Positions 443 to 47,451 of a DNA stretch of 64,000 nt are shown here, piece by piece. The notes beneath the pieces were generated by a model. The model was not told the origin of the DNA. It did not search any database and saw nothing but the letters and a program-made list of their open reading frames with translations. How positions within the stretch are numbered: position 1 is the stretch's first letter; the number at the start of each line of letters is the position of its first letter. Made by a program: the position numbers and the translations under genes. Origin of the DNA: an uncultured virus (IMG/VR IMGVR_UViG_3300007633_000001) (Duplodnaviria; Heunggongvirae; Uroviricota; Caudoviricetes); the IMG/VR virus record IMGVR_UViG_3300007633_000001. One strand, given 5' to 3'.

Positions 443-1648
443 GTGTTTGTAATAAGAGCTTTAGAAGGTAACGAGAAATTAAGTTGGACAATTAGGAAAA
501 ACCCTGAAACCAATTTAGAGAAAGGCCCTTTTAAGTTTAAGACTAGAACTGGGGTTTATTATGGCTACTACCCTTTAATTGGAGAAGGAGAAGTAAATGT
601 CAATGAATTCCGTGTTGAGTTTAAACCTGATTTAGGACGTTCTATACAAGGAGAAGAAGAACAGTTTTCTATTAATCATATAGCCCATCCTATAACTATT
701 AAAGGTGGTATAGATAATCTTTTAAGATCAGCTTATAAGAACAGTTATGAAGAAGATGGGCCTGTAGAGATAGAATTCTATGTGTTTTCTTTTAAAGGTA
801 TTGAAAGGATAGTCACAGCCTTTGGTTTAGAAGTAGAAGATAGTCATAACTTTGCTTATAAAATTAAGCAATCCTTTTCTACTCTCTATGAAGCTCTTAA
901 TAAAGTAATTGCTTTTTCTTATATATTTGTTGAAAAGGAGACTAATAAATCTTCCATTAACAAAGCTGTTGGATGCTGTAATGCTGCAGGTATAGATTAT
1001 TATGGACGTTATCTAATAGGAAGAAACTTAGGGCAATCAGTGCTATTTAGTACAGATGAAATTAAATTTAGTGGTGGCCATACACATTATCAAAGAAGGA
1101 GAGCTGTAAGTGATTTATTAAGATCTATTTGTTCAAAGGAGCCAGGTACTACCCTAATTGATCTAGGTGCAGGTTCTTTATTTAATCTAGATAAGATTAA
1201 TAATTTATATAATACAGTTATAGCTGTAGACTATGAATTTAGTCCTAAATCTTATAAGAAAGCAGAGGAATCTAATATTGAATTAGTAGAGAGCTCAATA
1301 AAAGAATTCTTACTTTCTAATAACCCTAACCTTAATAATGCAGATATATTATTAATGGAAGTTTTAGAGCATAATACTAAAGCTCAATCAGTAGAAATAT
1401 TAAAGAGACTAATTAAGAGTAAAGTAAGGAATATTATTATTACTGTTCCTAATAGAGATTTTAATGTCAACTATTCATCACTCAAAGGGTTTAGACATGC
1501 AGATCATTTATGGGAACCTAACATCAAAGAGTTAGAAGAAGTCTTACAATTTACTTTAAGTCTAGGTTATTCTTACGAAGTTAGAGGTATAGGTGATAGA
1601 GTAAAAGCTGAATATGTTTCATTAATGGCTATATTAAATAGGAATTAA
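443..1648 (+). CDS. hen1: Hen1-type 3'-terminal RNA ribose 2'-O-methyltransferase
   Basis: SAM motif DLGAGS, metal-binding EVLEH, TVPNRDFN and FRHADHLWE (cf. FRHxDHxFEW); N-terminal LSWTIRKNP resembles the Hen1 ligase-activating domain; 4 nt upstream of pnkp. Confidence 0.88.
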   Translation: MFVIRALEGNEKLSWTIRKNPETNLEKGPFKFKTRTGVYYGYYPLIGEGEVNVNEFRVEFKPDLGRSIQGEEEQFSINHIAHPITIKGGIDNLLRSAYKNSYEEDGPVEIEFYVFSFKGIERIVTAFGLEVEDSHNFAYKIKQSFSTLYEALNKVIAFSYIFVEKETNKSSINKAVGCCNAAGIDYYGRYLIGRNLGQSVLFSTDEIKFSGGHTHYQRRRAVSDLLRSICSKEPGTTLIDLGAGSLFNLDKINNLYNTVIAVDYEFSPKSYKKAEESNIELVESSIKEFLLSNNPNLNNADILLMEVLEHNTKAQSVEILKRLIKSKVRNIIITVPNRDFNVNYSSLKGFRHADHLWEPNIKELEEVLQFTLSLGYSYEVRGIGDRVKAEYVSLMAILNRN

Positions 1649-1652
1649 AGAG

Positions 1653-3866
1653 ATGAGAGTAGAGAATAAAACAATTACTCCATATACTATTATGTGTATG
1701 GTAGCACCTACAGGTACAGGTAAAAGCTATTGGGCTGGCAGACTAAAAGAGAAATATCCAGATTTAGTAGTTATATCCTCTGATGAAGAAAGGAGACAAC
1801 TCATAGGTGATAGTCCTTATATAAATCAGGAACAAAGTCATTACAGATATTCACCTGAAATGGCTCAAGTATCGGGTCCTGCCTTCCATGTCTTAAAGGC
1901 TAAAGTTGAATCATATTGCCAATGCAGTTCTCAGCATATATTAGTAGACTCTACTGGTAGTCCAGCTACTATTGATTTAATAAAGCCTATAGCTAAAAGA
2001 TTTAATTACTCATTAGTAGCTTTAGTAATGGAATTTGCTGATAGCGGATATTATGAATATGCGATTGATAGAGATATTACTTCTAAGTCTATTAAACAGT
2101 TTAAGAGGAAGTCTCTTAGCAACCTTACTGAATTCATTCGTTTAGAGATAAAGGATAGAGATCTATTTCCTACTTTAATTAGAGAAAGTAAAGTTTATTT
2201 AAATAAGTTTTCTGTAATAGGGGATTTACATCAAGAGATAGATAAAGCTAATGAATTAATTCCTAAATTAGAAGGTACTTTAATATTCCTTGGTGATTAC
2301 TTTGATACCAAAAAGTCTGAAGCTCAAAGTCATAATTCTATACTTAAAACTTTAGACTTTCTAGAAGAACAAATATCAAAAGGGAATTATCTAATTAGGG
2401 GTAACCATGAAAATTATATTTATGGTCGTTTAACTAATAAACATAAGGCTTGTGAGATAGAACCCGAATATTTCAACTCTGTTAATCTATTCTTACAACA
2501 CGAAGATCTTAAAGAAAGGTTTATACAGCTTTATTCGTATATGCCTATTTATATAAAGGTATGTTGTGAAGGACGTGACTATTCTTTAACTCATGCACCT
2601 GTAGGTCCTAAGTATAGATGTAGACCTGGCCAGAAGGCTAATTATAAATGTTATTATCCTTCTACTGGTTTATATGACTTCTTTAGTTTTGTTAATAATG
2701 ACTCTAATGATATTTTTATATGCGGCCATGTAGCCCATAAAGGTACCCTTACACCTTATCCTAATAAATGGTTTATCGATACTGGAGCTGCTTATGGAGG
2801 TATGCTTACAGGGCTTATATGTACTAGAGATTCTCAAAAACCTAGACAAGTTGGAGAGACAGATACAGGCCTACCAACTCTTGATAAGCCTAAAGAGATA
2901 CCTATTGAATATCAATATAGGGCTCAAAGATTATTAAAAGAAGAATGTAGTTTTATCTCAGGAACTATGTCACCAGGTCCTGCTTCAGATACAGAATTAG
3001 AGCCTTTAACAAATGCTCTTAATCTATTTAAGCAGAAGGGCATTAGAGAATTAGTATTAGATACTAAGCACATGGGATCCCGTTGTAATGCTTATGTAAC
3101 TGAGGATAAAGTTATATTGAGAAGTAGAAGCGGAGTGATCCTCAATTCTATAGAAATCCCTGATACTTTGATTTCATCTTTACAGGATATACGTCGTCGT
3201 TTAAGAGCCAAATCTATTATTATAGATGGGGAGCTTATGCCATGGTCGACTTTGGGGCAAGGTTTGATTGAGCAATATTCTTCCAAATTATGGATTTATA
3301 AGAACATTGCTAATTTAGCACTCAATTCTACAGAAGGATTAGAAGAAACAGAGGAAGTGCTTTCTTACTTCTCTTCTCAAGAAGATCCTTACTTCCTACC
3401 TTTTTCTATTCTTAAAGTTGAATATGAAGATAGAATTGAATATCCAGAATGGGAATGGGATATGGTATCTATAAAAGAGAAGTTGCAAGTAGAAAAATAT
3501 ATTACTATTCCTTCTGATGACTTCGATAAAGCTTCCCAATTCTTTAATGAATTGACTGTGAACCAGCATCTTGAAGGTATTGTAATTCGTCCTTTATTAA
3601 GTAAAGATAGACATCTTATTCCTTATTTGAAAGTGAGAGGAAAAGAATATCTTCGTTTAATATATGGACCTGACTATCTTTCACAATCTAACTTGGAAAG
3701 ACTTATTAGGAATAAAAATATTCAGCATAAGTTAAATCTTAGTATTAAAGAATGGAGAGAAGGATTTAATATGATATCTTCCTCTTCTTCCGAAGATCGA
3801 CTAGCCTCTATAGTGGAATTATTAGGACATCTGGATGAGGAAAAAGCATTAGATCCTGGATTATAA
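1653..3866 (+). CDS. pnkp: Bacterial-type polynucleotide kinase-phosphatase-ligase (Pnkp)
   Basis: P-loop APTGTGKS plus DEERR; metallophosphoesterase GDLH/GDYFD/GNHE/GH/IDTG; ligase KHMGSR, IDGELMPWS, EGIVIRP, KVRGKEYLRLIYGPDY, C-terminal LDPGL. Confidence 0.93.
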   Translation: MRVENKTITPYTIMCMVAPTGTGKSYWAGRLKEKYPDLVVISSDEERRQLIGDSPYINQEQSHYRYSPEMAQVSGPAFHVLKAKVESYCQCSSQHILVDSTGSPATIDLIKPIAKRFNYSLVALVMEFADSGYYEYAIDRDITSKSIKQFKRKSLSNLTEFIRLEIKDRDLFPTLIRESKVYLNKFSVIGDLHQEIDKANELIPKLEGTLIFLGDYFDTKKSEAQSHNSILKTLDFLEEQISKGNYLIRGNHENYIYGRLTNKHKACEIEPEYFNSVNLFLQHEDLKERFIQLYSYMPIYIKVCCEGRDYSLTHAPVGPKYRCRPGQKANYKCYYPSTGLYDFFSFVNNDSNDIFICGHVAHKGTLTPYPNKWFIDTGAAYGGMLTGLICTRDSQKPRQVGETDTGLPTLDKPKEIPIEYQYRAQRLLKEECSFISGTMSPGPASDTELEPLTNALNLFKQKGIRELVLDTKHMGSRCNAYVTEDKVILRSRSGVILNSIEIPDTLISSLQDIRRRLRAKSIIIDGELMPWSTLGQGLIEQYSSKLWIYKNIANLALNSTEGLEETEEVLSYFSSQEDPYFLPFSILKVEYEDRIEYPEWEWDMVSIKEKLQVEKYITIPSDDFDKASQFFNELTVNQHLEGIVIRPLLSKDRHLIPYLKVRGKEYLRLIYGPDYLSQSNLERLIRNKNIQHKLNLSIKEWREGFNMISSSSSEDRLASIVELLGHLDEEKALDPGL

Positions 3867-14919: not shown

Positions 14920-16950
<2,031 letters not shown>

Positions 16951-17838: not shown

Positions 17839-17910
17839 GCGACTGTAGCTCAATGGTAGAGCGTCTCCCTTCCAAGGAGAATGTTGCGAGTTCGAATCTC
17901 GTCAGTCGCT
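17839..17910 (+). tRNA. tRNA-Gly(TCC), CCA not encoded
   Basis: GCGACTG/CAGTCGC acceptor stem, GCTC/GAGC D-stem, TCTCC/GGAGA anticodon stem with CT-TCC-AA loop, GCGAG-TTCGAAT-CTCGT T-arm, U discriminator. Confidence 0.96.
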
Positions 17911-17969
17911 CTTGTAATCAGTGTTTAAATTTCACTAAGGATTATAAAATAAGAAGGAATAGATAGGAG

Positions 17970-19805: not shown

Positions 19806-20093
19806 ATGACGAATTTAAATAATAAAGCTTTAGAGAGAGGTAAAGATCTCATATTAGAGAAAGCTTATGAAGATGCTTATAATAAAAAGAATAGAGAATT
19901 TACTTATGGCGGTAGAGTGAAAAAACTTCCTACACAAATGAGAGAACAAGATATAAAGAATTTGTGTCTTGCTCTAATGGGGCGTAAAGACATCAGTAAA
20001 TATAGTAAAACATTACAAGAAGTTTATATAGATTTACTCAGTATGAACTTAAATCCCACCAATGAGTTGGAGACTGCTACCTCTACTAACTAG
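19806..20093 (+). CDS. Hypothetical protein
   Basis: 95-aa ORF. Confidence 0.6.
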   Translation: MTNLNNKALERGKDLILEKAYEDAYNKKNREFTYGGRVKKLPTQMREQDIKNLCLALMGRKDISKYSKTLQEVYIDLLSMNLNPTNELETATSTN

Positions 20094-20171
20094 TTATTAT
20101 TATCCCCGTATTATAGTAATTATTTAAGTTATACTTATATATATATATTGATTAGAATAAGTTCTTTTCCC

Positions 20172-20300
20172 ATGCAACAAATGTCAAAAAATAAGAAGTA
20201 CAATTCATCAAAAAGTTCAGGGAGTAAGGGTAATAAAAGAAAGTATAATCCTTCAAATAATGGGAGACCCAGTTCATCAAGCGGGGCTGGTACTAGATAA
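20172..20300 (+). CDS. Small basic peptide with C-terminal YNPSNNGRPSSSSGAGTR (42 aa, not in the ORF track)
   Basis: Direct translation; co-oriented with neighbours; motif shared with the next ORF. Confidence 0.6.
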   Translation: MQQMSKNKKYNSSKSSGSKGNKRKYNPSNNGRPSSSSGAGTR

Positions 20301-20334
20301 ATCATTAATGACGTAGTAATTAACAAAGATTTAT

Positions 20335-20481
20335 ATGTCTACTTCTAAAGACTCCAGAATTCAAGATAGTAAGAAGAATAAACAACCAAAACTAGCAAGT
20401 AATAAAACAAACATTCCACTTGATCCTCCCGATAGAGGTAAACCTGACAGAGGGTGGCCTAATGGTACACGTAAAACTTAG
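20335..20481 (+). CDS. Small basic peptide with PPDRGKPDRGWPNGTR motif (48 aa, not in the ORF track)
   Basis: Direct translation MSTSKDSRIQDSKKNKQPKLASNKTNIPLDPPDRGKPDRGWPNGTRKT*. Confidence 0.6.
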   Translation: MSTSKDSRIQDSKKNKQPKLASNKTNIPLDPPDRGKPDRGWPNGTRKT

Positions 20482-20652
20482 ATAATAATCAACTTTTAGT
20501 TAAGTCCAATAAAAAGTATTATGTAACATAGGAGATTAACATCAAATCATTTACTTGAAGGAATATAATTTACTAAGAGAGAGATGTATATAAACATATA
20601 TCTCTTTCTTTTTTTTATTGTTCGATTCTTTGCTATTTATATTAGGAGATTT

Positions 20653-27508: not shown

Positions 27509-27657
27509 TTACTAAGATAAAAAGTAATGTAGGAGTTGTTTTGTATTAAATATACAAACACTCGACACGGGTAAGAGCCCTTCGGTCGTTAAATGCTGTA
27601 TTAATAAATAGTAGATATTATTTCATTTTATTAATAGAGAAAAACTCTTACATTAAA

Positions 27658-27780
27658 GTACCGTAAGACATATGGGAATAATGCTCACTGAGGGTAAAGA
27701 GTTTGGCGTTAACAATTATGTATAAACCAGATTCTCCCTAAGAAGTGAGAATCTCTAACCTTCAAGGAAGAGAGTTGTCA
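27658..27780 (+). mobile_element. IS200/IS605 (tnpB) right-end / omegaRNA-like remnant without transposase or TnpB
   Basis: TACCGTAAGACATATGGGAATAATGCT ... GAAGTGAGAATCTCTAACCTTCAAGGAAGAGAGTTGTCA resembles the conserved 3' end of cyanobacterial tnpB elements (GAATC-hairpin-GAG-TGTCAA). Confidence 0.6.
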
Positions 27781-34545: not shown

Positions 34546-35298
34546 ATGGAACTATCTTATCCCAACAAACTTTTAGTAATAGGAGTCACTAATGTTAGTA
34601 TTCTCATACTAAGGCCATTAATACTTTACTTCTCTAATCTATATGATTCCGAATTAGATTATAATGAAGCGATTGAAATATGGGACTATAAAGATTTAAA
34701 TATTCACGATTCTAATTTAGGGAAGAATAGTTTATTAGGATCTTTTTTTCCTGATACTAATAAAAGCGTACATGTTTGTAAGAATTTAGGTGTACTAGAT
34801 GGTAAGTCTCCAATAGCTAAGGATAAAAGATTGAATTCCAGGTTACTAAATAAGTCAATAAGAAATGTCTTCCCTTTAATAATATCTTTTACTAAGGATA
34901 AAGATACTCACAGATCAATATCTGATACTATTACTAAACGATTTAAAGACAAGGACCTGGAAGATTGTATTTATATTGTTATAAGTAAGGATGATATTAA
35001 CTTAGCTAGTTACATAACGAATAGTAAATTAATTTATGATATAGATTTATCAGAGAGTAAATCCAAAGACTTTTATAATTCCAATTCGATTGAAGAAGAT
35101 ATGGAGGATATTAAAAGGGATTATAAAGAAATAGATTTGTTTTCAAACAAAAGGGCTAAAACTAATAGTGTTGTAAATGATATATCATTAGGATCTAGCT
35201 TAATAACTTTATTAGATGAAGTGATACATACAATTAGATTAGAAGATTTACCTATATCTATAAGAAAATCTAATCCACATTTTGAATACCCCTGTTAA
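34546..35298 (+). CDS. Hypothetical protein, possibly a degenerate ThiF/E1-like Rossmann fold
   Basis: KLLVIGV...LLRPL...IEIWD...SNLG spacing resembles the ThiF N-terminus but lacks GxGxxG. Confidence 0.35.
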   Translation: MELSYPNKLLVIGVTNVSILILRPLILYFSNLYDSELDYNEAIEIWDYKDLNIHDSNLGKNSLLGSFFPDTNKSVHVCKNLGVLDGKSPIAKDKRLNSRLLNKSIRNVFPLIISFTKDKDTHRSISDTITKRFKDKDLEDCIYIVISKDDINLASYITNSKLIYDIDLSESKSKDFYNSNSIEEDMEDIKRDYKEIDLFSNKRAKTNSVVNDISLGSSLITLLDEVIHTIRLEDLPISIRKSNPHFEYPC

Positions 35299-35446
35299 TA
35301 AAGGATCTACCAATCACAAATGTTTGCGTTAGAATACTTTCATGATTCTAAATTACTGCTATCGCATATACCCAGGGGAGGAATGCTCAGTAGTGATATT
35401 GGAAAGCTCAGGCCATGTTAGGATGGCAATTAGCGTTAGGAGGATA

Positions 35447-39790: not shown

Positions 39791-40543
39791 ATGACATTTG
39801 AATATTATCTTAACCAATTAAAAGAAGTAGAAGACGTTATTGTAGAGCATATAGAAGAGGAGTTTGCTAATGCTCTTAATAACTTAGTGTTAAAAGTAGT
39901 TATAGAGCTATTACAGAATAATGATTCTATTGTTAAAGGCTTATTATTTTATGGTCGTTCGCCATCGGTAAGTGAAAGTATTAATAGCTTTTTAGGAGTG
40001 GATTATTTAATAGAAGCTGATTCTGCTTCAAATGTACCAGCCAGTCCTTTATATCAGAACGTCACAGCTAGGTATTCTATTAATAACGAATTATATTTTA
40101 GGGTACCTTTGTTGGATTATGATACTCCAATTTATACTAGTTATATTCTCCCTCTAATTGACGGGAAGAGTGTAAGAGCAAATATAGTAAATCAATGGTT
40201 AGAAACACCTAATACTAACGGAGAAGAAGGACAGAGAGTATTTCTGATTGATCAGTTAGAAGATATAAAGTTATATCTACAGGATCAACAAGAAATTGTT
40301 AAAGATAAAATAGACTTAGAAGTTAAAGAATCTAAAGAATCTAAAGAAGAGGTAAAGTTAAATAACAGTAATCAAGATCGTACACAGATTGGGGATGAAA
40401 TAAAGTCAGCTGCTGATAGTTCTTCAATTAGTAAAGAAAGTAAACCTTTAGATAGTGAGACTAAAGAGAATCCGAATAAAGCTAAAAGTCGTACAAAGAA
40501 AAAAGATAAGAAGTCAGAGGATTTAATGGAGGAGGATAAATAG
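39791..40543 (+). CDS. Hypothetical protein with charged low-complexity C-terminus
   Basis: 250-aa ORF. Confidence 0.65.
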   Translation: MTFEYYLNQLKEVEDVIVEHIEEEFANALNNLVLKVVIELLQNNDSIVKGLLFYGRSPSVSESINSFLGVDYLIEADSASNVPASPLYQNVTARYSINNELYFRVPLLDYDTPIYTSYILPLIDGKSVRANIVNQWLETPNTNGEEGQRVFLIDQLEDIKLYLQDQQEIVKDKIDLEVKESKESKEEVKLNNSNQDRTQIGDEIKSAADSSSISKESKPLDSETKENPNKAKSRTKKKDKKSEDLMEEDK

Positions 40544-41257
40544 ATGTATTTAACTATTATTGATACAGAAACTACTGGTCTTGATACAAGTACTTGTAGT
40601 GTGGTAGAAGTAGGGGCTATATTATATTCTGTAAAGCATCAGAAAATAATTAATCAAATGTCGTTTTTAATGCCTTTAAACAATACAGGTGAAGATGCTT
40701 TTGAAATTCATGGTATTGAAAGTTCTCTTTGTCAATTGTCTATAGGCTTTATGCCTCTTAAGGAGGTATTAGATGAATGGGTTGAAGTATCTTCTTATGT
40801 TGTTTCACATAATGTTGAATTTGATTCAGCTTTAATTGATGGGATACCTGAAGAGAAATGGTTATGTACTTTTAGGGATTTCAGATGGCCTAAATCTAGA
40901 TCCAGAGAGCTTATTAAAATTGCTTTAGCTTATGATATACCGGTTACTACAGTTCATAGAGCTTTGGCAGATTGTTCTTTGATTGCTTCGTTGTTTACAA
41001 AGTTAGGAGATAAACTAACTTATTCTATAGAGGAAGCTATCAAGCCTTTGCACTTTGTAGTAATTGACAGTCCTAAGTATCTAACTAAAGATCAATGTTA
41101 TCCTTATAACTTATCTTTTGGGGATATTCAAATTACGTATGGAGGTACTCCTAGAATTCTGAAGAAATGGCACGGTTGGTTAAGACAAGAAGAGATTGAT
41201 AATCTTCCTGAATATCTTAGTCAACATTTGATTATTGGCAGATCTATAAGACATTAA
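40544..41257 (+). CDS. DnaQ-like DEDDh 3'-5' exonuclease
   Basis: IDTETTGL, HGI, SHNVEFD, HRALADC. Confidence 0.92.
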   Translation: MYLTIIDTETTGLDTSTCSVVEVGAILYSVKHQKIINQMSFLMPLNNTGEDAFEIHGIESSLCQLSIGFMPLKEVLDEWVEVSSYVVSHNVEFDSALIDGIPEEKWLCTFRDFRWPKSRSRELIKIALAYDIPVTTVHRALADCSLIASLFTKLGDKLTYSIEEAIKPLHFVVIDSPKYLTKDQCYPYNLSFGDIQITYGGTPRILKKWHGWLRQEEIDNLPEYLSQHLIIGRSIRH

Positions 41258-41451
41258 TTTGTTAATAGCCTTTTTATGAAATTGTCTTTGTAAAGGGGCT
41301 ATCAGTATTACTATAAAAAGTAATGATACAATTTAGTATTGTTATTTGAGTCCGCGTTGCTATTATTTATTAATTAAATCCAATAAGATTATTGAAAGAT
41401 GATTTTATATTTATTGATTATCAATAATTTCTAATAAGGACGTGTAAGGTA

Positions 41452-42288
41452 ATGACATCGATTGTTAAAAATAATAGTAAGTTAAATAAAAAGGAATTAA
41501 AAAGTAATAAGCAAAAGCATCGAGATAAATCAACCTTTTTAGGTTTGAACTTTTATAAAAACTTAAAACAAGTCCCTGTTACTAGTGGAGTTTATTGTAT
41601 AAGGAATAAATCTAATAACAAGTTGTATATTGGAAGTACTATTAATATGTCAGGAGGAGGGATAAAAGCACGTTTAAGGAATCATATTCGTCAACTAAAT
41701 AAGGGATGTCATAATAATATAGATCTCCAGGAAGATTGGAATAAATATGATAGATCCCACTTTTTGATATATTGTAAAGCTTGTTTAATGAATGAGACGA
41801 GAGATACAGAAGAACAGTTAATAAGACAACAAACTATTAAAACTCTTTATAATAAATCTTTATCAGTATCAAAGAACTATAGGTTTATGGGAGAAACTCA
41901 TAAAATTATAGTTAATAAAAGTCATAGCAATTATACTTTATATTGGCAAGGATATAAGGTAGATACTTATTCTCATATGAGCAAAGCTAAAAATGATGCC
42001 CGTATATTAGGAGCATTGAACTTTAAGGATACTTTTAAATTTATAAGTTCTAAGTCTACTTTCAAAGGAAATTATTTAATAGAACAATCTCCTGACGATA
42101 ATCTGTTTAATCTTTTTATCTCAGGCTTATTTTTAGGTACTTATATTAATTATGAGGATGCAGTTGAACAAGCTGAAAAACTTAAGTCTTATTACTATAA
42201 GAAATTAGTCAGATGGAAAGAGATTAATATTACGCCTATCAATATTAAAGTCGAACCTATTCCTATTCAATCTTCTCATAAAGTTTAA
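41452..42288 (+). CDS. GIY-YIG endonuclease (homing endonuclease-like)
   Basis: SGVYCIRNKSNNKLYIGS, RLRNH, HNNIDLQEDWNKY, E...YN. Confidence 0.85.
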   Translation: MTSIVKNNSKLNKKELKSNKQKHRDKSTFLGLNFYKNLKQVPVTSGVYCIRNKSNNKLYIGSTINMSGGGIKARLRNHIRQLNKGCHNNIDLQEDWNKYDRSHFLIYCKACLMNETRDTEEQLIRQQTIKTLYNKSLSVSKNYRFMGETHKIIVNKSHSNYTLYWQGYKVDTYSHMSKAKNDARILGALNFKDTFKFISSKSTFKGNYLIEQSPDDNLFNLFISGLFLGTYINYEDAVEQAEKLKSYYYKKLVRWKEINITPINIKVEPIPIQSSHKV

Positions 42289-42511
42289 GACTTTTATTTT
42301 TATAGAATCTATTTATAATTATTCAGATTTATACATTCGGTAATTCCTAATTATTAAAGTGTAGAAGGCCGTATATATACTTATTATTAATTCATATATA
42401 TTTATAAATGTAGATAACAAAAGGATTCAATTGGGTAGAATTCAATTCGATTAAAGAATCATTTTGTATCAATAGACTGTCAATTTAATTAGTTAGTAGA
42501 TAAATAAACAA

Positions 42512-42994
42512 ATGTTTAGCCTTTTTAATCCTAATAATACAAACGGTTTTAAAACTCTTGATGATTTCGCAAGAGAAGTTTTGAAAGCTAGTTATCCTGT
42601 TTATTATACAGTCACATCTCGTACAGGTCCTTTACAAACTAATAATAGTAACGCATTAAATAGTAATTTAAATACTTCTAATAAGGTTTATGAACCTCAT
42701 TATGTAGTTAAATATTTAGAAGACAAGTTAGTTGTAGAAGTAGAACTACCAGGATACAAAAAAGAGGACTTTGAAATAAGTATAAGTCCTTCTATACAAG
42801 ACAATAAGAATAGTGAGCTTTCTATACGTGCCGAATCTTCTATCAATGATAAAGTATGTAACCTATCGTTAAGTCTAAAAGTCTTATATGATTGTATTAA
42901 TTTAGAAGCTTTAGCTGCAAATTACAGCAATGGATTATTGGAAGTCACGGTTCCCTTTAGTCCTAGAAATAGTCATAAAATAGAAGTCACATGA
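42512..42994 (+). CDS. Small heat-shock protein (Hsp20/alpha-crystallin)
   Basis: VEVELPGYKKEDFEI ... ANYSNGLLEVTVP. Confidence 0.9.
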   Translation: MFSLFNPNNTNGFKTLDDFAREVLKASYPVYYTVTSRTGPLQTNNSNALNSNLNTSNKVYEPHYVVKYLEDKLVVEVELPGYKKEDFEISISPSIQDNKNSELSIRAESSINDKVCNLSLSLKVLYDCINLEALAANYSNGLLEVTVPFSPRNSHKIEVT

Positions 42995-43033
42995 TGAATC
43001 ATAATTAGTCACTACATTAAGTTATCATAAAAC

Positions 43034-43077
43034 AACGAGGCAGATCTTTATTAAACTGAATAAAGGTCTGCCTTGTT
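43034..43077 (+). terminator. About 19-bp stem-loop after hsp20
   Basis: AACGAGGCAGATCTTTATT / AATAAAGGTCTGCCTTGTT with G-U pairs on the + strand. Confidence 0.65.
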
Positions 43078-43133
43078 ATATATATTGATATTAAGATAGT
43101 CTATCAGAAAAGATGTAAATAAATTATAAATTA

Positions 43134-44891
43134 ATGAGTTCAAAGGATGGCAAAAGTATTAGTTCTAGGAAATGGGTATCAAGTTATAAAAAGCTTTTTC
43201 CCTGGTCTAATTATCAGACATCAGTATTTGACTGGATAGAAAAGTCTAACAAATACACTTTACTAAATTCTGTAAATAACGAAGATTTATTTATAGATTT
43301 AAAAGGACAAAGAGTAAGTAGATCTTTAGTTATCAGTTCAGTAGCTGGTAGTGGTAAAACTACAACTATATTAGGAATAGTAGGAGCTTTAAAAGGTTCA
43401 GCACATATAGTAGCTTTTAATGAACATATTGCAAAGAGACTCAAAACCGATTCTAGAATTCCTAAGTCAAGAGTTAAAGTTAGTACAGCCCATTCATTAG
43501 GGTTTTATTTAATAAGAAGAAGTTATGGTGGGCAAGAGTTTAAAGTCAATAACAGTAAATATCCACATATAATAGACTACGTCTACAAATCTTTAGGGAT
43601 TGACTTTGACTTAATAATTAAAAATAGATACCCATATTTAAATAAAGCCATTAGGAGTAAGAAGAAATATTACTTAAAGAAGTTTCTATTAGACATAGTT
43701 AATAAAAGTAGATTATGTTTGATAGAGCCTGAAGTAAACAATCTAAAAGCATTTATTGAAGACTTTGGAATACACAATCCTTTACCTAATGATGATGGAG
43801 ATATATTACTTTCTTACATATCTCATGTTTTAGAAGTTGGTAAAGATAAATTGATTACTGATCAAGAGATTGATTTTACTGACATGCTATGGATCCCTTA
43901 CATTAATAATATAGATCCAGTTACTATAAAGGATTATTTAATAGTGGATGAAGCACAGGATTTAAATCCATGTATGATTTCATTATTTTATAAGTATTAT
44001 CAAAAAGGTAGTATAACTATATTTACTGGGGATCCAAATCAAGCAATAAATGGTTTTATGGGTTCTGACTATACTTGTTGGAAAAGATTAAAAGAAGAAT
44101 TCAATTCAGATACTAAAGAACTTAATTATTGTTATAGATGTCCTAAGTCTCATTTAGAGATGGCTAGATTGTTAGTACCTAATATTGAATCACCAGAAGG
44201 TACAAAAGAAGGTATTATAAATATCCATTCGGTAGACGATATAAACACCTTAGTTAAACCCAAGGATCTAGTTTTATGTAGATTTAATGCTCCTATTGTA
44301 AGGTTATGTCTGAAGTTAATTGCTAGTAATAGAATAGGTGTTATAAGGGGTAAACAGATTTATAATACTCTAGTCAATCTTATAAACTTAACTACTAAAC
44401 CTAATTATGATTTAGATACTTCTGTAAAAGCTTTAGAGGATTATTACAATAATGAATCAAAGATACTAATTAGGGATGAAGAATATACAGCATTAGAAGA
44501 CTTAACAGACAAGTATAAGGCATTAAGTTATATTTATATCTATATAAACAATGAAGTAGATAAATCTAAAGTTAATTGTAATATAGCTTATATAAAAGAA
44601 TTCTTAAGTAATTTGTTTAATGGGGCACATAAAGAAAATGCAGTTATATTTTCAACCTTCCATTCTTCTAAAGGTGATGAAGCTAATAATACTTTTATTA
44701 TTGCCAATAGAAGTAGTTTTCCTTACCTTAATAAAGCCATTAAGCCTTGGATGGAAGAGCAGGAGTGGAATTTAGTCTATGTAGCACTTACTAGATCAAA
44801 ACACTCTATGACTTTTCTTTATGAGCCTAATGACTTTGGTAAGTCAATACCAAAATTAAATGATTTAATACCTTGGTTAACACTAAGCTAA
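43134..44891 (+). CDS. UvrD/Rep-family SF1 helicase
   Basis: VAGSGKTT, AFN, STAHSLG, IDFTDM, VDEAQD, GDPNQAI, YRCP, STFHSSKGDE, YVALTR. Confidence 0.93.
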   Translation: MSSKDGKSISSRKWVSSYKKLFPWSNYQTSVFDWIEKSNKYTLLNSVNNEDLFIDLKGQRVSRSLVISSVAGSGKTTTILGIVGALKGSAHIVAFNEHIAKRLKTDSRIPKSRVKVSTAHSLGFYLIRRSYGGQEFKVNNSKYPHIIDYVYKSLGIDFDLIIKNRYPYLNKAIRSKKKYYLKKFLLDIVNKSRLCLIEPEVNNLKAFIEDFGIHNPLPNDDGDILLSYISHVLEVGKDKLITDQEIDFTDMLWIPYINNIDPVTIKDYLIVDEAQDLNPCMISLFYKYYQKGSITIFTGDPNQAINGFMGSDYTCWKRLKEEFNSDTKELNYCYRCPKSHLEMARLLVPNIESPEGTKEGIINIHSVDDINTLVKPKDLVLCRFNAPIVRLCLKLIASNRIGVIRGKQIYNTLVNLINLTTKPNYDLDTSVKALEDYYNNESKILIRDEEYTALEDLTDKYKALSYIYIYINNEVDKSKVNCNIAYIKEFLSNLFNGAHKENAVIFSTFHSSKGDEANNTFIIANRSSFPYLNKAIKPWMEEQEWNLVYVALTRSKHSMTFLYEPNDFGKSIPKLNDLIPWLTLS

Positions 44892-46680: not shown

Positions 46681-47451
46681 ATGAGTATTGAACGTTTAGG
46701 AAATAGGATGAAAGTATATGAGAGTACAGATAAATTTATACCTTTCCTGCCTATAATAGTACGATTAGACGGACGTTGTTTTCATAGGTTTACTAAAGGT
46801 CTTGAGAAGCCTTATAGTAAAGCGTTTATAAAAAGTATGGCTGAAGTCACTAAGGCTTTAGTTAATGAGACTAATGCAAAACTTGGCTATACACAGTCCG
46901 ATGAGATTAGTCTGTTAATACAAGAACAGGAAGTTAATAAACAAGTTTACTTTGATGGTAAAAAACAGAAGATAATTAGTGTATTAGCTTCTTTATGTAC
47001 CGATAAGTTTAGACAAGCTAGATTAAATAATTTGCCAGGATTTAAAACAGAATGTAGTGCTTTATTTGATTGTAGAGCTTTTAATCTTCCTAATACCAAT
47101 GAAGTTATTAATTACTTTACTTGGAGAGAACTTGATGCGACTAAGAATGCTCTATCTTCAGCAGCTCGTCAGGTAGCTAATTATATAGAACTTCACGGTA
47201 AAGATAAAACATTCCAGCATGAATTACTAATGAGGAATGGAATAAACTTTAACAATTATCCAGCTTATTTTAAAAGAGGAATATATATCAAACGTATTAC
47301 TGAGTATAGGGAATTGACTGAAAATGAGATGGAAAATATTCCTTATGAGTACCAACCTCAAGGTCCAGTTGAGAGGCGTTCTATTAAATACTTAAGAGTA
47401 CCTCCTATAAATAAATTAACTTTAAGGCAACAAAAGAGACTTATTAGTTAA
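46681..47451 (+). CDS. tRNA(His) guanylyltransferase Thg1-like 3'-5' polymerase
   Basis: RMKVYE, VRLDGRCFHRFT, YTQSDEISL, FDGKKQK, FDCR, YFTWRELDA, FKRG. Confidence 0.95.
   Translation: MSIERLGNRMKVYESTDKFIPFLPIIVRLDGRCFHRFTKGLEKPYSKAFIKSMAEVTKALVNETNAKLGYTQSDEISLLIQEQEVNKQVYFDGKKQKIISVLASLCTDKFRQARLNNLPGFKTECSALFDCRAFNLPNTNEVINYFTWRELDATKNALSSAARQVANYIELHGKDKTFQHELLMRNGINFNNYPAYFKRGIYIKRITEYRELTENEMENIPYEYQPQGPVERRSIKYLRVPPINKLTLRQQKRLIS

What the first reader, a model, noticed from the sequence alone, without database searches (positions are those of the whole stretch)
20172..20481. Two unannotated tandem peptides ending in a P-x-x-x-G-x-P...GTR motif: possible mimics of cyanobacterial signalling peptides
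Seen: two short Lys/Ser-rich ORFs below the track cutoff, otherwise dissimilar, converge on YNPSNNGRPSSSSGAGTR* and LDPPDRGKPDRGWPNGTRKT*. From recollection, PP-xx-G-x-P-xxx-G-x-G-(T/S)-R is the signature of cyanobacterial DUF928 N-termini and of small cyanobacterial proteins ending in it, often near CHASE2/CHAT genes. It is loosely reminiscent of, but distinct from, the RGSGR of PatS/HetN/PatX. Inference: phage-encoded peptide mimics that manipulate a host peptide-sensing pathway, or serve in phage-phage communication. No signal peptide is visible, so action may be intracellular or on lysis. I know of no description of such a system in phages.
Basis: partly seen in the sequence, partly recalled or inferred. 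Interest (0 to 1): 0.75.

Follow-up and report, generated by a model that had tools for sequence, protein, structure and literature searches.

The report
Phage copies of cyanobacterial signal peptides
A large virus of filamentous cyanobacteria carries two tiny genes that imitate a widespread but undescribed host signal peptide predicted to bind CHASE2 sensors, which suggests that viruses manipulate host signalling and names a testable ligand for a sensor whose input has been unknown.

Summary
Both ORFs are in the sequence (42 and 48 aa), between a (TA)6 tract and a strong terminator hairpin, in a large AT-rich phage whose ligase is 92% identical in DNA to that of cyanobacterium ESFC-1. Their C-termini match a large family of secreted cyanobacterial peptides and the DUF928 N-terminal motif (G-x-P-x6-G-[ST]-R). 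A host-only profile ranks them 1st and 2nd of 37,202 window 18-mers (31 and 22 bits; next -5). In ESFC-1 the peptide gene follows a CHASE2-PAS-GGDEF cyclase. ORF1 co-folds with that CHASE2 domain (0.76, best control 0.00; mark reached by 116 of 157 solved and 2 of 215 mismatched pairs). Four IMG/VR contigs carry the motif; a CRISPR-targeted element of ESFC-1 carries three units, each copying a different host paralogue. The phage peptides have a basic leader instead of the signal peptide, so delivery is inferred (release at lysis into the filament's shared periplasm). Expression, conservation in related phages, ORF2's receptor and the sign of the effect are untested. They are not PatS/PatX. The scan noted the host side earlier on other DNA; its index returned no note on the viral side.

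The parts
20136..20147 (+). (TA)6 tract 24 nt upstream of the ORF1 ATG; possible phage promoter element (inferred)
   Evidence: similar tracts occur in several other intergenic gaps (12523, 14813, 19713, 44902, 54231) and also inside some ORFs; no sigma-70 match directly upstream
20172..20300 (+). ORF1, 42 aa: basic Lys/Ser/Asn leader (+8 in 24 aa), then the CHASE2-ligand-like motif at the very C-terminus
   Evidence: 31.4 bits; 11/18 identical to the ESFC-1 peptide, 12/18 to others; co-fold 0.76 vs best control 0.00; charge
20244..20297 (+). ORF1 motif, residues 25-42, P-x-N-N-G class (like the small partner of CHASE2-PAS-GGDEF)
   Evidence: residues 22-42 form the predicted interface
20335..20481 (+). 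ORF2, 48 aa: basic leader (+5 in 28 aa), motif, then two further residues
   Evidence: called gene; 22.4 bits
20419..20472 (+). ORF2 motif, P-P-D-R-G class (like the DUF928 in the DUF928-TPS/CHAT-CHASE2 kinase operon and some small peptides)
   Evidence: 10/18 identical to ESFC-1 DUF928 L025, 11/18 to peptide L140; host units ending hydrophobic-P-x-G-T-R exist (L154-L157); P0098 shares IPLDPPDRG
20575..20610 (+). 15-bp hairpin followed by a T run: intrinsic-terminator-like, closes the two-gene unit
   Evidence: 1 found, 0.2 expected; -17.7 kcal/mol, z -5.1, 0 of 200 shuffles as stable
14920..16935 (-). NAD-dependent DNA ligase recently taken from the host; host marker, not part of the module
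   Evidence: 91% aa to ESFC-1; 92% nt; 89% and 86% to the next two genomes

Best explanation
ORF1 and ORF2 are phage-encoded mimics of a cyanobacterial secreted peptide signal whose ~18-residue motif binds the periplasmic CHASE2 domain of host membrane cyclases and kinases. ORF1 resembles the partner of the CHASE2-PAS-GGDEF diguanylate cyclase (Dgc2 type); ORF2 resembles the PPDRG class found on the DUF928 of a DUF928-CHAT-CHASE2 kinase operon, so the phage probably addresses two receptors. SHOWN: sequence, motif significance, host lineage, host gene pairing, recurrence in other viral elements. MODELLED: ORF1-CHASE2 binding. INFERRED: the two genes are transcribed as one unit; lacking a signal peptide, the peptides build up in the cytoplasm and reach receptors when the inner membrane opens at lysis, entering the periplasm shared along the filament or the surrounding mat; the basic leader holds them on the anionic envelope or helps them cross the outer membrane. 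I favour reproduction of the native signal over competitive blocking (about 65:35), and raising c-di-GMP so that neighbours stop gliding and stay near progeny phage (about 55%).
For: Host-only profile ranks the two motifs 1st and 2nd of 37,202. 60 viral matches chosen for P-D-R-G-x-P-x6-G-T-R score at most 15.8 bits against 30.4 and 25.5. Ligase 92% nt to ESFC-1. Peptide gene directly after CHASE2-PAS-GGDEF in 3 of 3 nearest genomes. Co-fold of ORF1 residues 11-42 with ESFC-1 CHASE2 residues 38-330: score 0.76, best of 3 controls 0.00; mark reached by 116 of 157 solved complexes and 2 of 215 mismatched pairs; runs agree in at least 93% of contacts; partner pLDDT at least 71. No PDB chain matches this CHASE2 by sequence, so a pass from memory is less likely. 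20 of 49 interface residues are at least 90% conserved versus 63 of 244 others (p 0.047, weak). Amino acids are kept while codons differ (ORF1 vs host: 9 of 11 identical residues use other codons). Recurrence: element L126, hit by two ESFC-1 CRISPR spacers (42/45 and 34/40), encodes one secreted protein with three units 16/16, 16/19 and 14/18 identical to three different ESFC-1 paralogues. A complete 87.8 kb phage and a related fragment carry a leaderless two-unit ORF among head genes. Loss of Dgc2 releases gliding in Leptolyngbya and its CHASE2 ligand is unknown (PMC10581220, passages). Periplasm is continuous along Anabaena filaments (PMC12288457, passages).
Against: No signal peptide, whereas 124 of 130 short family members have a hydrophobic N-terminus; the route to a periplasmic receptor is inferred. 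No related phage was found, so conservation is untested. ORF1 was not found as a called protein. Codon usage fits coding only weakly (0.047 and 0.055 per codon; sense 0.087 +/- 0.093, antisense -0.034 +/- 0.12), and there is no clear ribosome-binding site. The phage motifs score below most host members (leave-one-out 21-61 bits). The co-fold used an alignment of ORF1 with 29 host peptides, so it tests the family as much as this copy; close cousins also pass, and ORF2 was not folded. Many host peptides are not next to a CHASE2 gene: 0 of 23 class-wide loci had a CHASE2 or GGDEF hit within about 1.5 kb, against 8 of 16 small-peptide loci in the ESFC-1 family with a GGDEF hit. Shared periplasm is documented for Anabaena, not for ESFC-1.
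Confidence: 0.57

Rival explanations
1. Decayed relic: host or phage secreted-peptide genes that lost their signal peptides and no longer work.
For: No signal peptide; weak codon signal; ORF1 not called; motif scores lower than most host copies; the phage holds other host-derived remnants (IS scars).
Against: Two separate ORFs each keep the motif in frame at the C-terminus while synonymous sites have diverged; both have a basic leader beyond the range of 116 family members (mean -1.0, max +3); own terminator; leaderless versions recur in another phage lineage.
Confidence: 0.12
2. Intracellular decoy: the peptides act in the infected cell's cytoplasm, on nascent CHASE2 proteins, on a CHAT protease or peptidase that handles the native precursor, or on an unknown cytoplasmic reader, for example to damp a caspase-like death pathway.
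For: No export signal; ESFC-1 has a cytoplasmic-CHAT/CHASE2 fusion and a DUF928-CHAT-CHASE2 operon.
Against: The CHASE2 domain is followed by membrane segments in all 7 ESFC-1 proteins checked and preceded by one in 6 of 7, so it is extracytoplasmic; other viral copies (L099, L105, L126, L127) keep signal peptides, which points outside the cell.
Confidence: 0.13
3. Virion cargo: the basic leader binds DNA, the peptides are packaged and are delivered to the periplasm at injection, where they set the receptor state of the newly infected cell.
For: Strongly basic leaders; in G155/G156 the leaderless ORF lies between head genes.
Against: In this window the ORFs lie among non-structural genes and no head gene was found in the window; the G155/G156 leader is not basic (by inspection).
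Confidence: 0.11
4. Phage-phage communication (arbitrium-like) through a phage-encoded receptor.
For: Short diffusible-looking peptides; only part of the ~186 kb contig is in the window.
Against: No sensor hit in the window ORFs scanned; the motif fits a host receptor; viral copies track host paralogues residue by residue.
Confidence: 0.04
5. PatS/PatX-like inhibitor of HetR, or a chance low-complexity resemblance.
For: Ends in G-x-G-T-R; HetR is present in 24 of 25 genomes of the ESFC-1 family.
Against: No RG[S/T]GR in any window frame of 12 aa or more; that pentapeptide is essential for activity (PMC7761841, passages). Chance is excluded.
Confidence: 0.03

Closest known systems
Small secreted cyanobacterial peptides ending Y-x-P-P-[DN]-N-G-x-P-x6-G-T-R
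   Same: Same 18-residue motif, same register, at the C-terminus; 11-12 of 18 identical for ORF1.
   Different: Host members have a signal peptide and a neutral or acidic linker; the phage ones have none and are basic.
DUF928 (PF06051) proteins beside CHASE2 receptors
   Same: N-terminal motif after the signal peptide; ORF2 is 10/18 identical to ESFC-1 DUF928 L025.
   Different: The phage peptides lack the ~184-residue domain and give no Pfam hit; the motif lies mostly upstream of the Pfam model.
YIP peptides of PB1-like Pseudomonas phages (PMC8085984; abstract and Discussion read)
   Same: Small phage peptides that target a membrane diguanylate cyclase and alter c-di-GMP, motility and biofilm.
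   Different: YIP acts from inside on YfiN's membrane helices and is not described as a copy of a host ligand; here the peptide copies a host extracytoplasmic signal, a second receptor class is probably addressed, and the receptor is CHASE2.
PatS / HetN / PatX (PMC7761841, PMC12756182; passages)
   Same: Short cyanobacterial peptides with a Gly/Arg C-terminal motif; PatX is exported; 6 of 130 family members also carry RG[S/T]GR.
   Different: No RG[S/T]GR in the phage peptides; target is cytoplasmic HetR there, periplasmic CHASE2 here.
Phage-encoded peptide signals: arbitrium AimP; agr genes of a Clostridioides phage (both recalled; the arbitrium review PMC12472986 seen only as a search listing)
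   Same: A phage encodes a peptide signal.
   Different: Those carry export signals or processing genes and their own receptor; here no receptor is seen in the window and the ligand copies the host's.
Sinorhizobium CHASE2 cyclases CyaD1/D2/K (PMC13001267, passages)
   Same: CHASE2 enzymes respond to a signal of protein nature from another organism.
   Different: There the signal is sensed through the outer-membrane protein NsrA and no direct CHASE2 ligand is named.

Membership tests
Cyanobacterial CHASE2-partner small peptides | C-terminal motif P-x3-G-x-P-x6-G-[ST]-R | tested here: met
Cyanobacterial CHASE2-partner small peptides | N-terminal signal peptide | tested here: not met
   hydropathy -0.87 and -0.01 versus at least 1.5 in 124 of 130; crude hydropathy test, no SignalP
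Cyanobacterial CHASE2-partner small peptides | Encoded next to a CHASE2 receptor gene | tested here: not met
   neighbours are GP88-like and unknown genes; no CHASE2 hit in 30 ORFs scanned by Pfam
Cyanobacterial CHASE2-partner small peptides | Binds a CHASE2 domain | tested here: inconclusive
   model supports binding for ORF1: 0.76 vs best control 0.00, 116/157 solved and 2/215 mismatched reach the mark; a model, not a measurement; ORF2 not folded
DUF928 (PF06051) | Pfam domain above cut-off | tested here: not met
   0 families at E 0.1
DUF928 (PF06051) | N-terminal G-x-P-x6-G-[ST]-R motif | tested here: met
   8 of 20 host DUF928 strict, 14 of 20 loose; both phage ORFs strict
PatS/HetN/PatX | RG(S/T)GR pentapeptide | tested here: not met
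   requirement from PMC7761841
PatS/HetN/PatX | Inhibits HetR | not testable with these tools
   needs a binding or differentiation assay
Arbitrium-type phage communication | Exported pro-peptide plus phage-encoded receptor in the same locus (recalled) | tested here: not met
   no signal peptide; no receptor hit among neighbours; the rest of the genome is not held
YIP (phage peptides acting on a diguanylate cyclase) | Changes host c-di-GMP through a membrane cyclase | not testable with these tools
   inferred from the co-fold with a CHASE2-PAS-GGDEF protein; no sequence comparison with YIP was run

The most novel reading that the evidence does not exclude
Filamentous cyanobacteria use an undescribed paralogue-specific peptide code (a ~18-residue motif on small secreted proteins and DUF928, read by periplasmic CHASE2 receptors), and several unrelated viruses have independently evolved cocktails of counterfeit ligands for it. 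This phage's leaderless versions act as a lysis-released signal that reprograms c-di-GMP, motility or defence in the uninfected cells of the same filament.
Probability: 0.4. Interest if true: 0.93.

Novelty: new variant of a known kind. Interest (0 to 1): 0.82.

Why it matters
CHASE2 is a widespread sensor domain whose ligand is stated to be unknown (PMC10581220). The viral copies strip the candidate ligand down to 18 residues and show which residues and which paralogue classes matter, so the question can be tested with synthetic peptides. If correct, it is a bacterial counterpart of viral cytokine mimicry: a phage steering the behaviour of the cells next to the one it kills, in mat- and crust-forming cyanobacteria. 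The peptides would also be ready-made tools to switch gliding or biofilm formation in filamentous cyanobacteria.

Tried and rejected
No whole genome is held for the window. Related phage with these ORFs: none in isolated phages by DNA (4 short hits, all in the GP88 gene region), none in IMG/VR for ORF2 or the downstream gene; ORF2 found only itself among 1 candidate; 7 of 8 window proteins found in the collection are single-member clusters. Pfam, PHROG, NCBIfam: no hit for either ORF. ESM Atlas: best 0.78 for ORF2 and nothing usable for ORF1, leads only. PDB: nothing significant for the motif profile. Plasmid tblastn: chance hits only. No RNA holder listed, no evidence either way. Laid contigs show no variants, so no selection test; gaps in cover prove nothing. 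Recoded stop: ORF1's frame is open for 26 codons back to the TAG of the upstream 95-aa gene and holds a mildly hydrophobic stretch (1.72), but opening TAG raises coverage no more than opening TGA (0.81, 0.80 vs 0.77); table 11 kept, read-through not excluded. No CRISPR spacer against the window seen in the genomes searched (40001-44000 not searched). L126 has no virion hallmark in 22 ORFs scanned and no relative in isolated phages: called phage-like only. Literature: DUF928 gave 1 paper, without the motif; searches showed no listing that describes the motif or a phage mimic; most subscription papers are not in the library and supplements were not read.

Full report
OBSERVATION. Both ORFs are present as described: ORF1 20172-20300 (42 aa) and ORF2 20335-20481 (48 aa), on the + strand, 34 nt apart. 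Their ends align without gaps as P-x3-G-[RK]-P-x6-G-T-R. A (TA)6 tract lies 24 nt before ORF1 and a 15-bp hairpin with a T run follows ORF2 (z -5.1), so the pair looks like its own transcription unit (inference). A public contig spans 19814-20553 with no difference. ORF2 is a called gene on 5 contigs, the longest 185,952 b; ORF1 is not in the collection from either ATG. Codon usage is compatible with coding but weak, and the window has 40 other intergenic ORFs of 35-99 aa, so ORF length alone is no evidence.

CONTEXT AND HOST. The window is 26-35% GC with endolysins, RIIB, helicase, DNA polymerase exonuclease, homing endonuclease and Pnkp/Hen1-like genes: a large phage; no terminase or capsid hit lies in the window. 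Its NAD ligase is 91% identical in protein and 92% in DNA to that of filamentous cyanobacterium ESFC-1, 89% to a Spirulinaceae MAG and 86% to Jaaginema in DNA, against 66% protein identity for the nearest isolated phages, of Microcystis. Two stretches match ends of IS elements of ESFC-1. The host is therefore very likely of that lineage (inference; no spacer match was found).

THE HOST MOTIF. These three genomes hold 6, 7 and 7 DUF928 genes (0 of 14 control genomes) and 11, 12 and 12 CHASE2 genes; 16 of the 20 DUF928 genes lie within about 5 kb of a CHASE2 gene (my count from those coordinates). The strict motif G-x-P-x6-G-[ST]-R follows the signal peptide in 8 of 20 DUF928 proteins, a looser form in 14 of 20 (the script retrieved 17 of the 20), and is absent from 120 CHASE2 proteins used as control. 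In 3 of 3 genomes a 70-76 aa gene with a signal peptide directly follows a CHASE2-PAS-GGDEF gene and ends in the motif (YQPRDNGSPDSSQGSGTR in ESFC-1). With one such peptide as query, 20 of 151 genomes of the class matched, and 19 of the 24 loci held a small motif-ending ORF; 21 of 25 genomes of the ESFC-1 family matched the profile. An HMM of 20 host C-termini found 141 representatives among 1.84 billion proteins; 130 are short, 124 of these have a hydrophobic N-terminus. Against the simple picture: none of the 23 class-wide loci had a CHASE2 or GGDEF hit within about 1.5 kb, while 8 of 16 small-peptide loci in the ESFC-1 family had a GGDEF hit, so ligand and receptor genes are often unlinked, or some members serve something else.

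MORE THAN CHANCE. A profile made from host peptides only scores ORF1 31.4 and ORF2 22.4 bits, first and second of 37,202 stop-free 18-mers; the third scores -5.1; expected counts in the window are 8e-9 and 2e-6; 0 of 20,000 shuffles of each peptide reach the score. The family was chosen because it resembles the phage peptides, but two adjacent hits of this size outlast that correction, and 60 viral stretches selected for eight of the motif's residues reached at most 15.8 bits. ORF1 is nearest the cyclase-partner class (11/18 with ESFC-1, up to 12/18), ORF2 the PPDRG class (10/18 with the DUF928 of the DUF928-TPS/CHAT-CHASE2 kinase operon). Codons differ at most shared residues (9 of 11 and 7 of 10): the likeness is at the protein level.

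RECEPTOR MODEL. ORF1 residues 11-42 were co-folded with the ESFC-1 CHASE2 domain: score 0.76, best of 3 controls 0.00; the mark was reached by 116 of 157 solved complexes and 2 of 215 mismatched pairs; runs agree in at least 93% of contacts; partner pLDDT at least 71. The interface is the motif (residues 22-42). No PDB chain matches this CHASE2 by sequence. Interface residues are slightly more conserved than the rest (20 of 49 vs 63 of 244 at 90% or more, p 0.047). Caveats: the peptide alignment held 29 host peptides, so the pass speaks for the family as much as for this copy; it is a model and gives no affinity or sign; ORF2 was not tested.

OTHER VIRAL COPIES. Four IMG/VR contigs carry the motif. 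G156 (87.8 kb, terminal repeats, 100% complete; major head protein and terminase; a structural protein 36% like Synechococcus phage S-EIVl) and the fragment G155 have a 92-95 aa ORF with two motif units and, by inspection, no signal peptide, among head genes. G154 and G157 have signal-peptide versions. Metagenome contigs L125-L127 encode one secreted protein with three units; those of L126 are 16/16, 16/19 and 14/18 identical to two different ESFC-1 DUF928 motifs and to the ESFC-1 cyclase partner, with 9-11 of the shared codons changed in each. ESFC-1's CRISPR array has spacers matching L126 at 42/45 (260 nt upstream of that gene) and 34/40. L126 has 10 tRNA-like genes and a tmRNA but no virion hallmark in 22 ORFs scanned: phage-like, not shown viral. 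L126 and L127 differ almost only in the signal peptide and unit 1, as if that unit were swapped. No protein similarity was found between the window and the fetched parts of these elements, so the copies look independent. The scans were narrow and these counts are lower bounds.

MECHANISM. Shown: motif, host, gene pairing, recurrence. Modelled: binding to CHASE2. Inferred: the rest. CHASE2 is extracytoplasmic by hydropathy. The phage peptides have a basic leader in place of the signal peptide (+8 and +5; 116 family members average -1.0, max +3). The simplest route is release when the inner membrane opens at lysis, into the periplasm that runs along the filament (PMC12288457, for Anabaena) or into the mat, with the basic leader holding the peptide on the envelope. 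The cyclase has the same architecture as Leptolyngbya Dgc2, whose loss releases gliding and whose ligand is unknown (PMC10581220). I favour a mimic that reproduces the native signal and keeps neighbours sessile, as YIP raises c-di-GMP in Pseudomonas (PMC8085984), but the sign is open. Rivals: relic (0.12), intracellular decoy (0.13), virion cargo (0.11), phage-phage signal (0.04), PatS-like or chance (0.03).

COMPARISON AND NOVELTY. It works like a ligand of the small-peptide/DUF928-CHASE2 system but is not a canonical member: no signal peptide, no linked receptor, no DUF928 domain. It is not PatS/PatX: no RG[S/T]GR (PMC7761841, PMC12756182, passages). Phage peptides that act on c-di-GMP or serve as signals are a known kind; counterfeit, paralogue-matched ligands for CHASE2 receptors were not found in the ten paper searches, which cover open-access text only. 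Earlier notes of this scan describe the host side on other DNA; look-ups for the viral side returned nothing. Papers were seen as passages (PMC10581220, PMC12756182, PMC7761841, PMC12288457, PMC5587647, PMC13001267) or abstract plus Discussion (PMC8085984); no supplements were read.

VERDICT. Open: expression, conservation in relatives, ORF2's receptor, delivery and sign.

Noticed in passing
L126:9944-10312 (+), L125:4247-4615 (+), L127:2879-3220 (+): Phage-like element targeted by ESFC-1 CRISPR spacers encodes a secreted protein with three motif units, each copying a different host paralogue; signal peptide and unit 1 differ between L126 and L127 while the flanks are nearly identical. It also has many tRNA-like genes and a tmRNA.
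   Followed up: partly
L104:1347-1640 (-), L101:1381-1668 (+): Leaderless two-unit motif ORF between head genes of an 87.8 kb complete phage and a related fragment; candidate virion cargo.
   Followed up: partly
L099:4872-5147 (+); proteins P0068, P0092, P0100, P0112, P0134, P0138: Secreted precursors that combine the CHASE2-type motif with a PatX-like element: 6 of 130 carry RG[S/T]GR, and the viral L099 protein has a degenerate form. The two peptide systems may share precursors.
   Followed up: no
L080, L081, L084, L090, L093, L094, L098 (around 1500): Many host peptides sit in a recurring locus between genes that look like nadB and ictB (labels recalled from the translations, not run against a family library), without a CHASE2 gene nearby.
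   Followed up: no
window 14920-16935 (-): NAD-dependent ligase 92% identical in DNA to ESFC-1: a very recent host capture, on the strand opposite its neighbours.
   Followed up: yes
window 27642-27780 and 35296-35445: Remnants of host IS elements; the second matches both flanks of a TnpB-like gene in ESFC-1 joined together, like an excision or deletion scar (TnpB label recalled).
   Followed up: partly
window 443-3866 (+): Hen1 N-terminal-like gene followed by a Pnkp-like kinase/phosphatase/ligase: a phage RNA repair pair; a tRNA-His guanylyltransferase is at 46681-47451 and tRNA-Gly(TCC) at 17839-17911.
   Followed up: no
window 12523, 14813, 19713, 20136, 44902, 54231: (TA)n tracts in intergenic gaps ahead of ORFs; possible phage promoter element.
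   Followed up: no
window 19806-20297 (+): The 95-aa gene and ORF1 are in one frame separated by a single TAG; read-through would add a mildly hydrophobic stretch ahead of ORF1.
   Followed up: partly
L152:637-1713 (-): A 359-aa open frame with at least five tandem copies of the motif.
   Followed up: no
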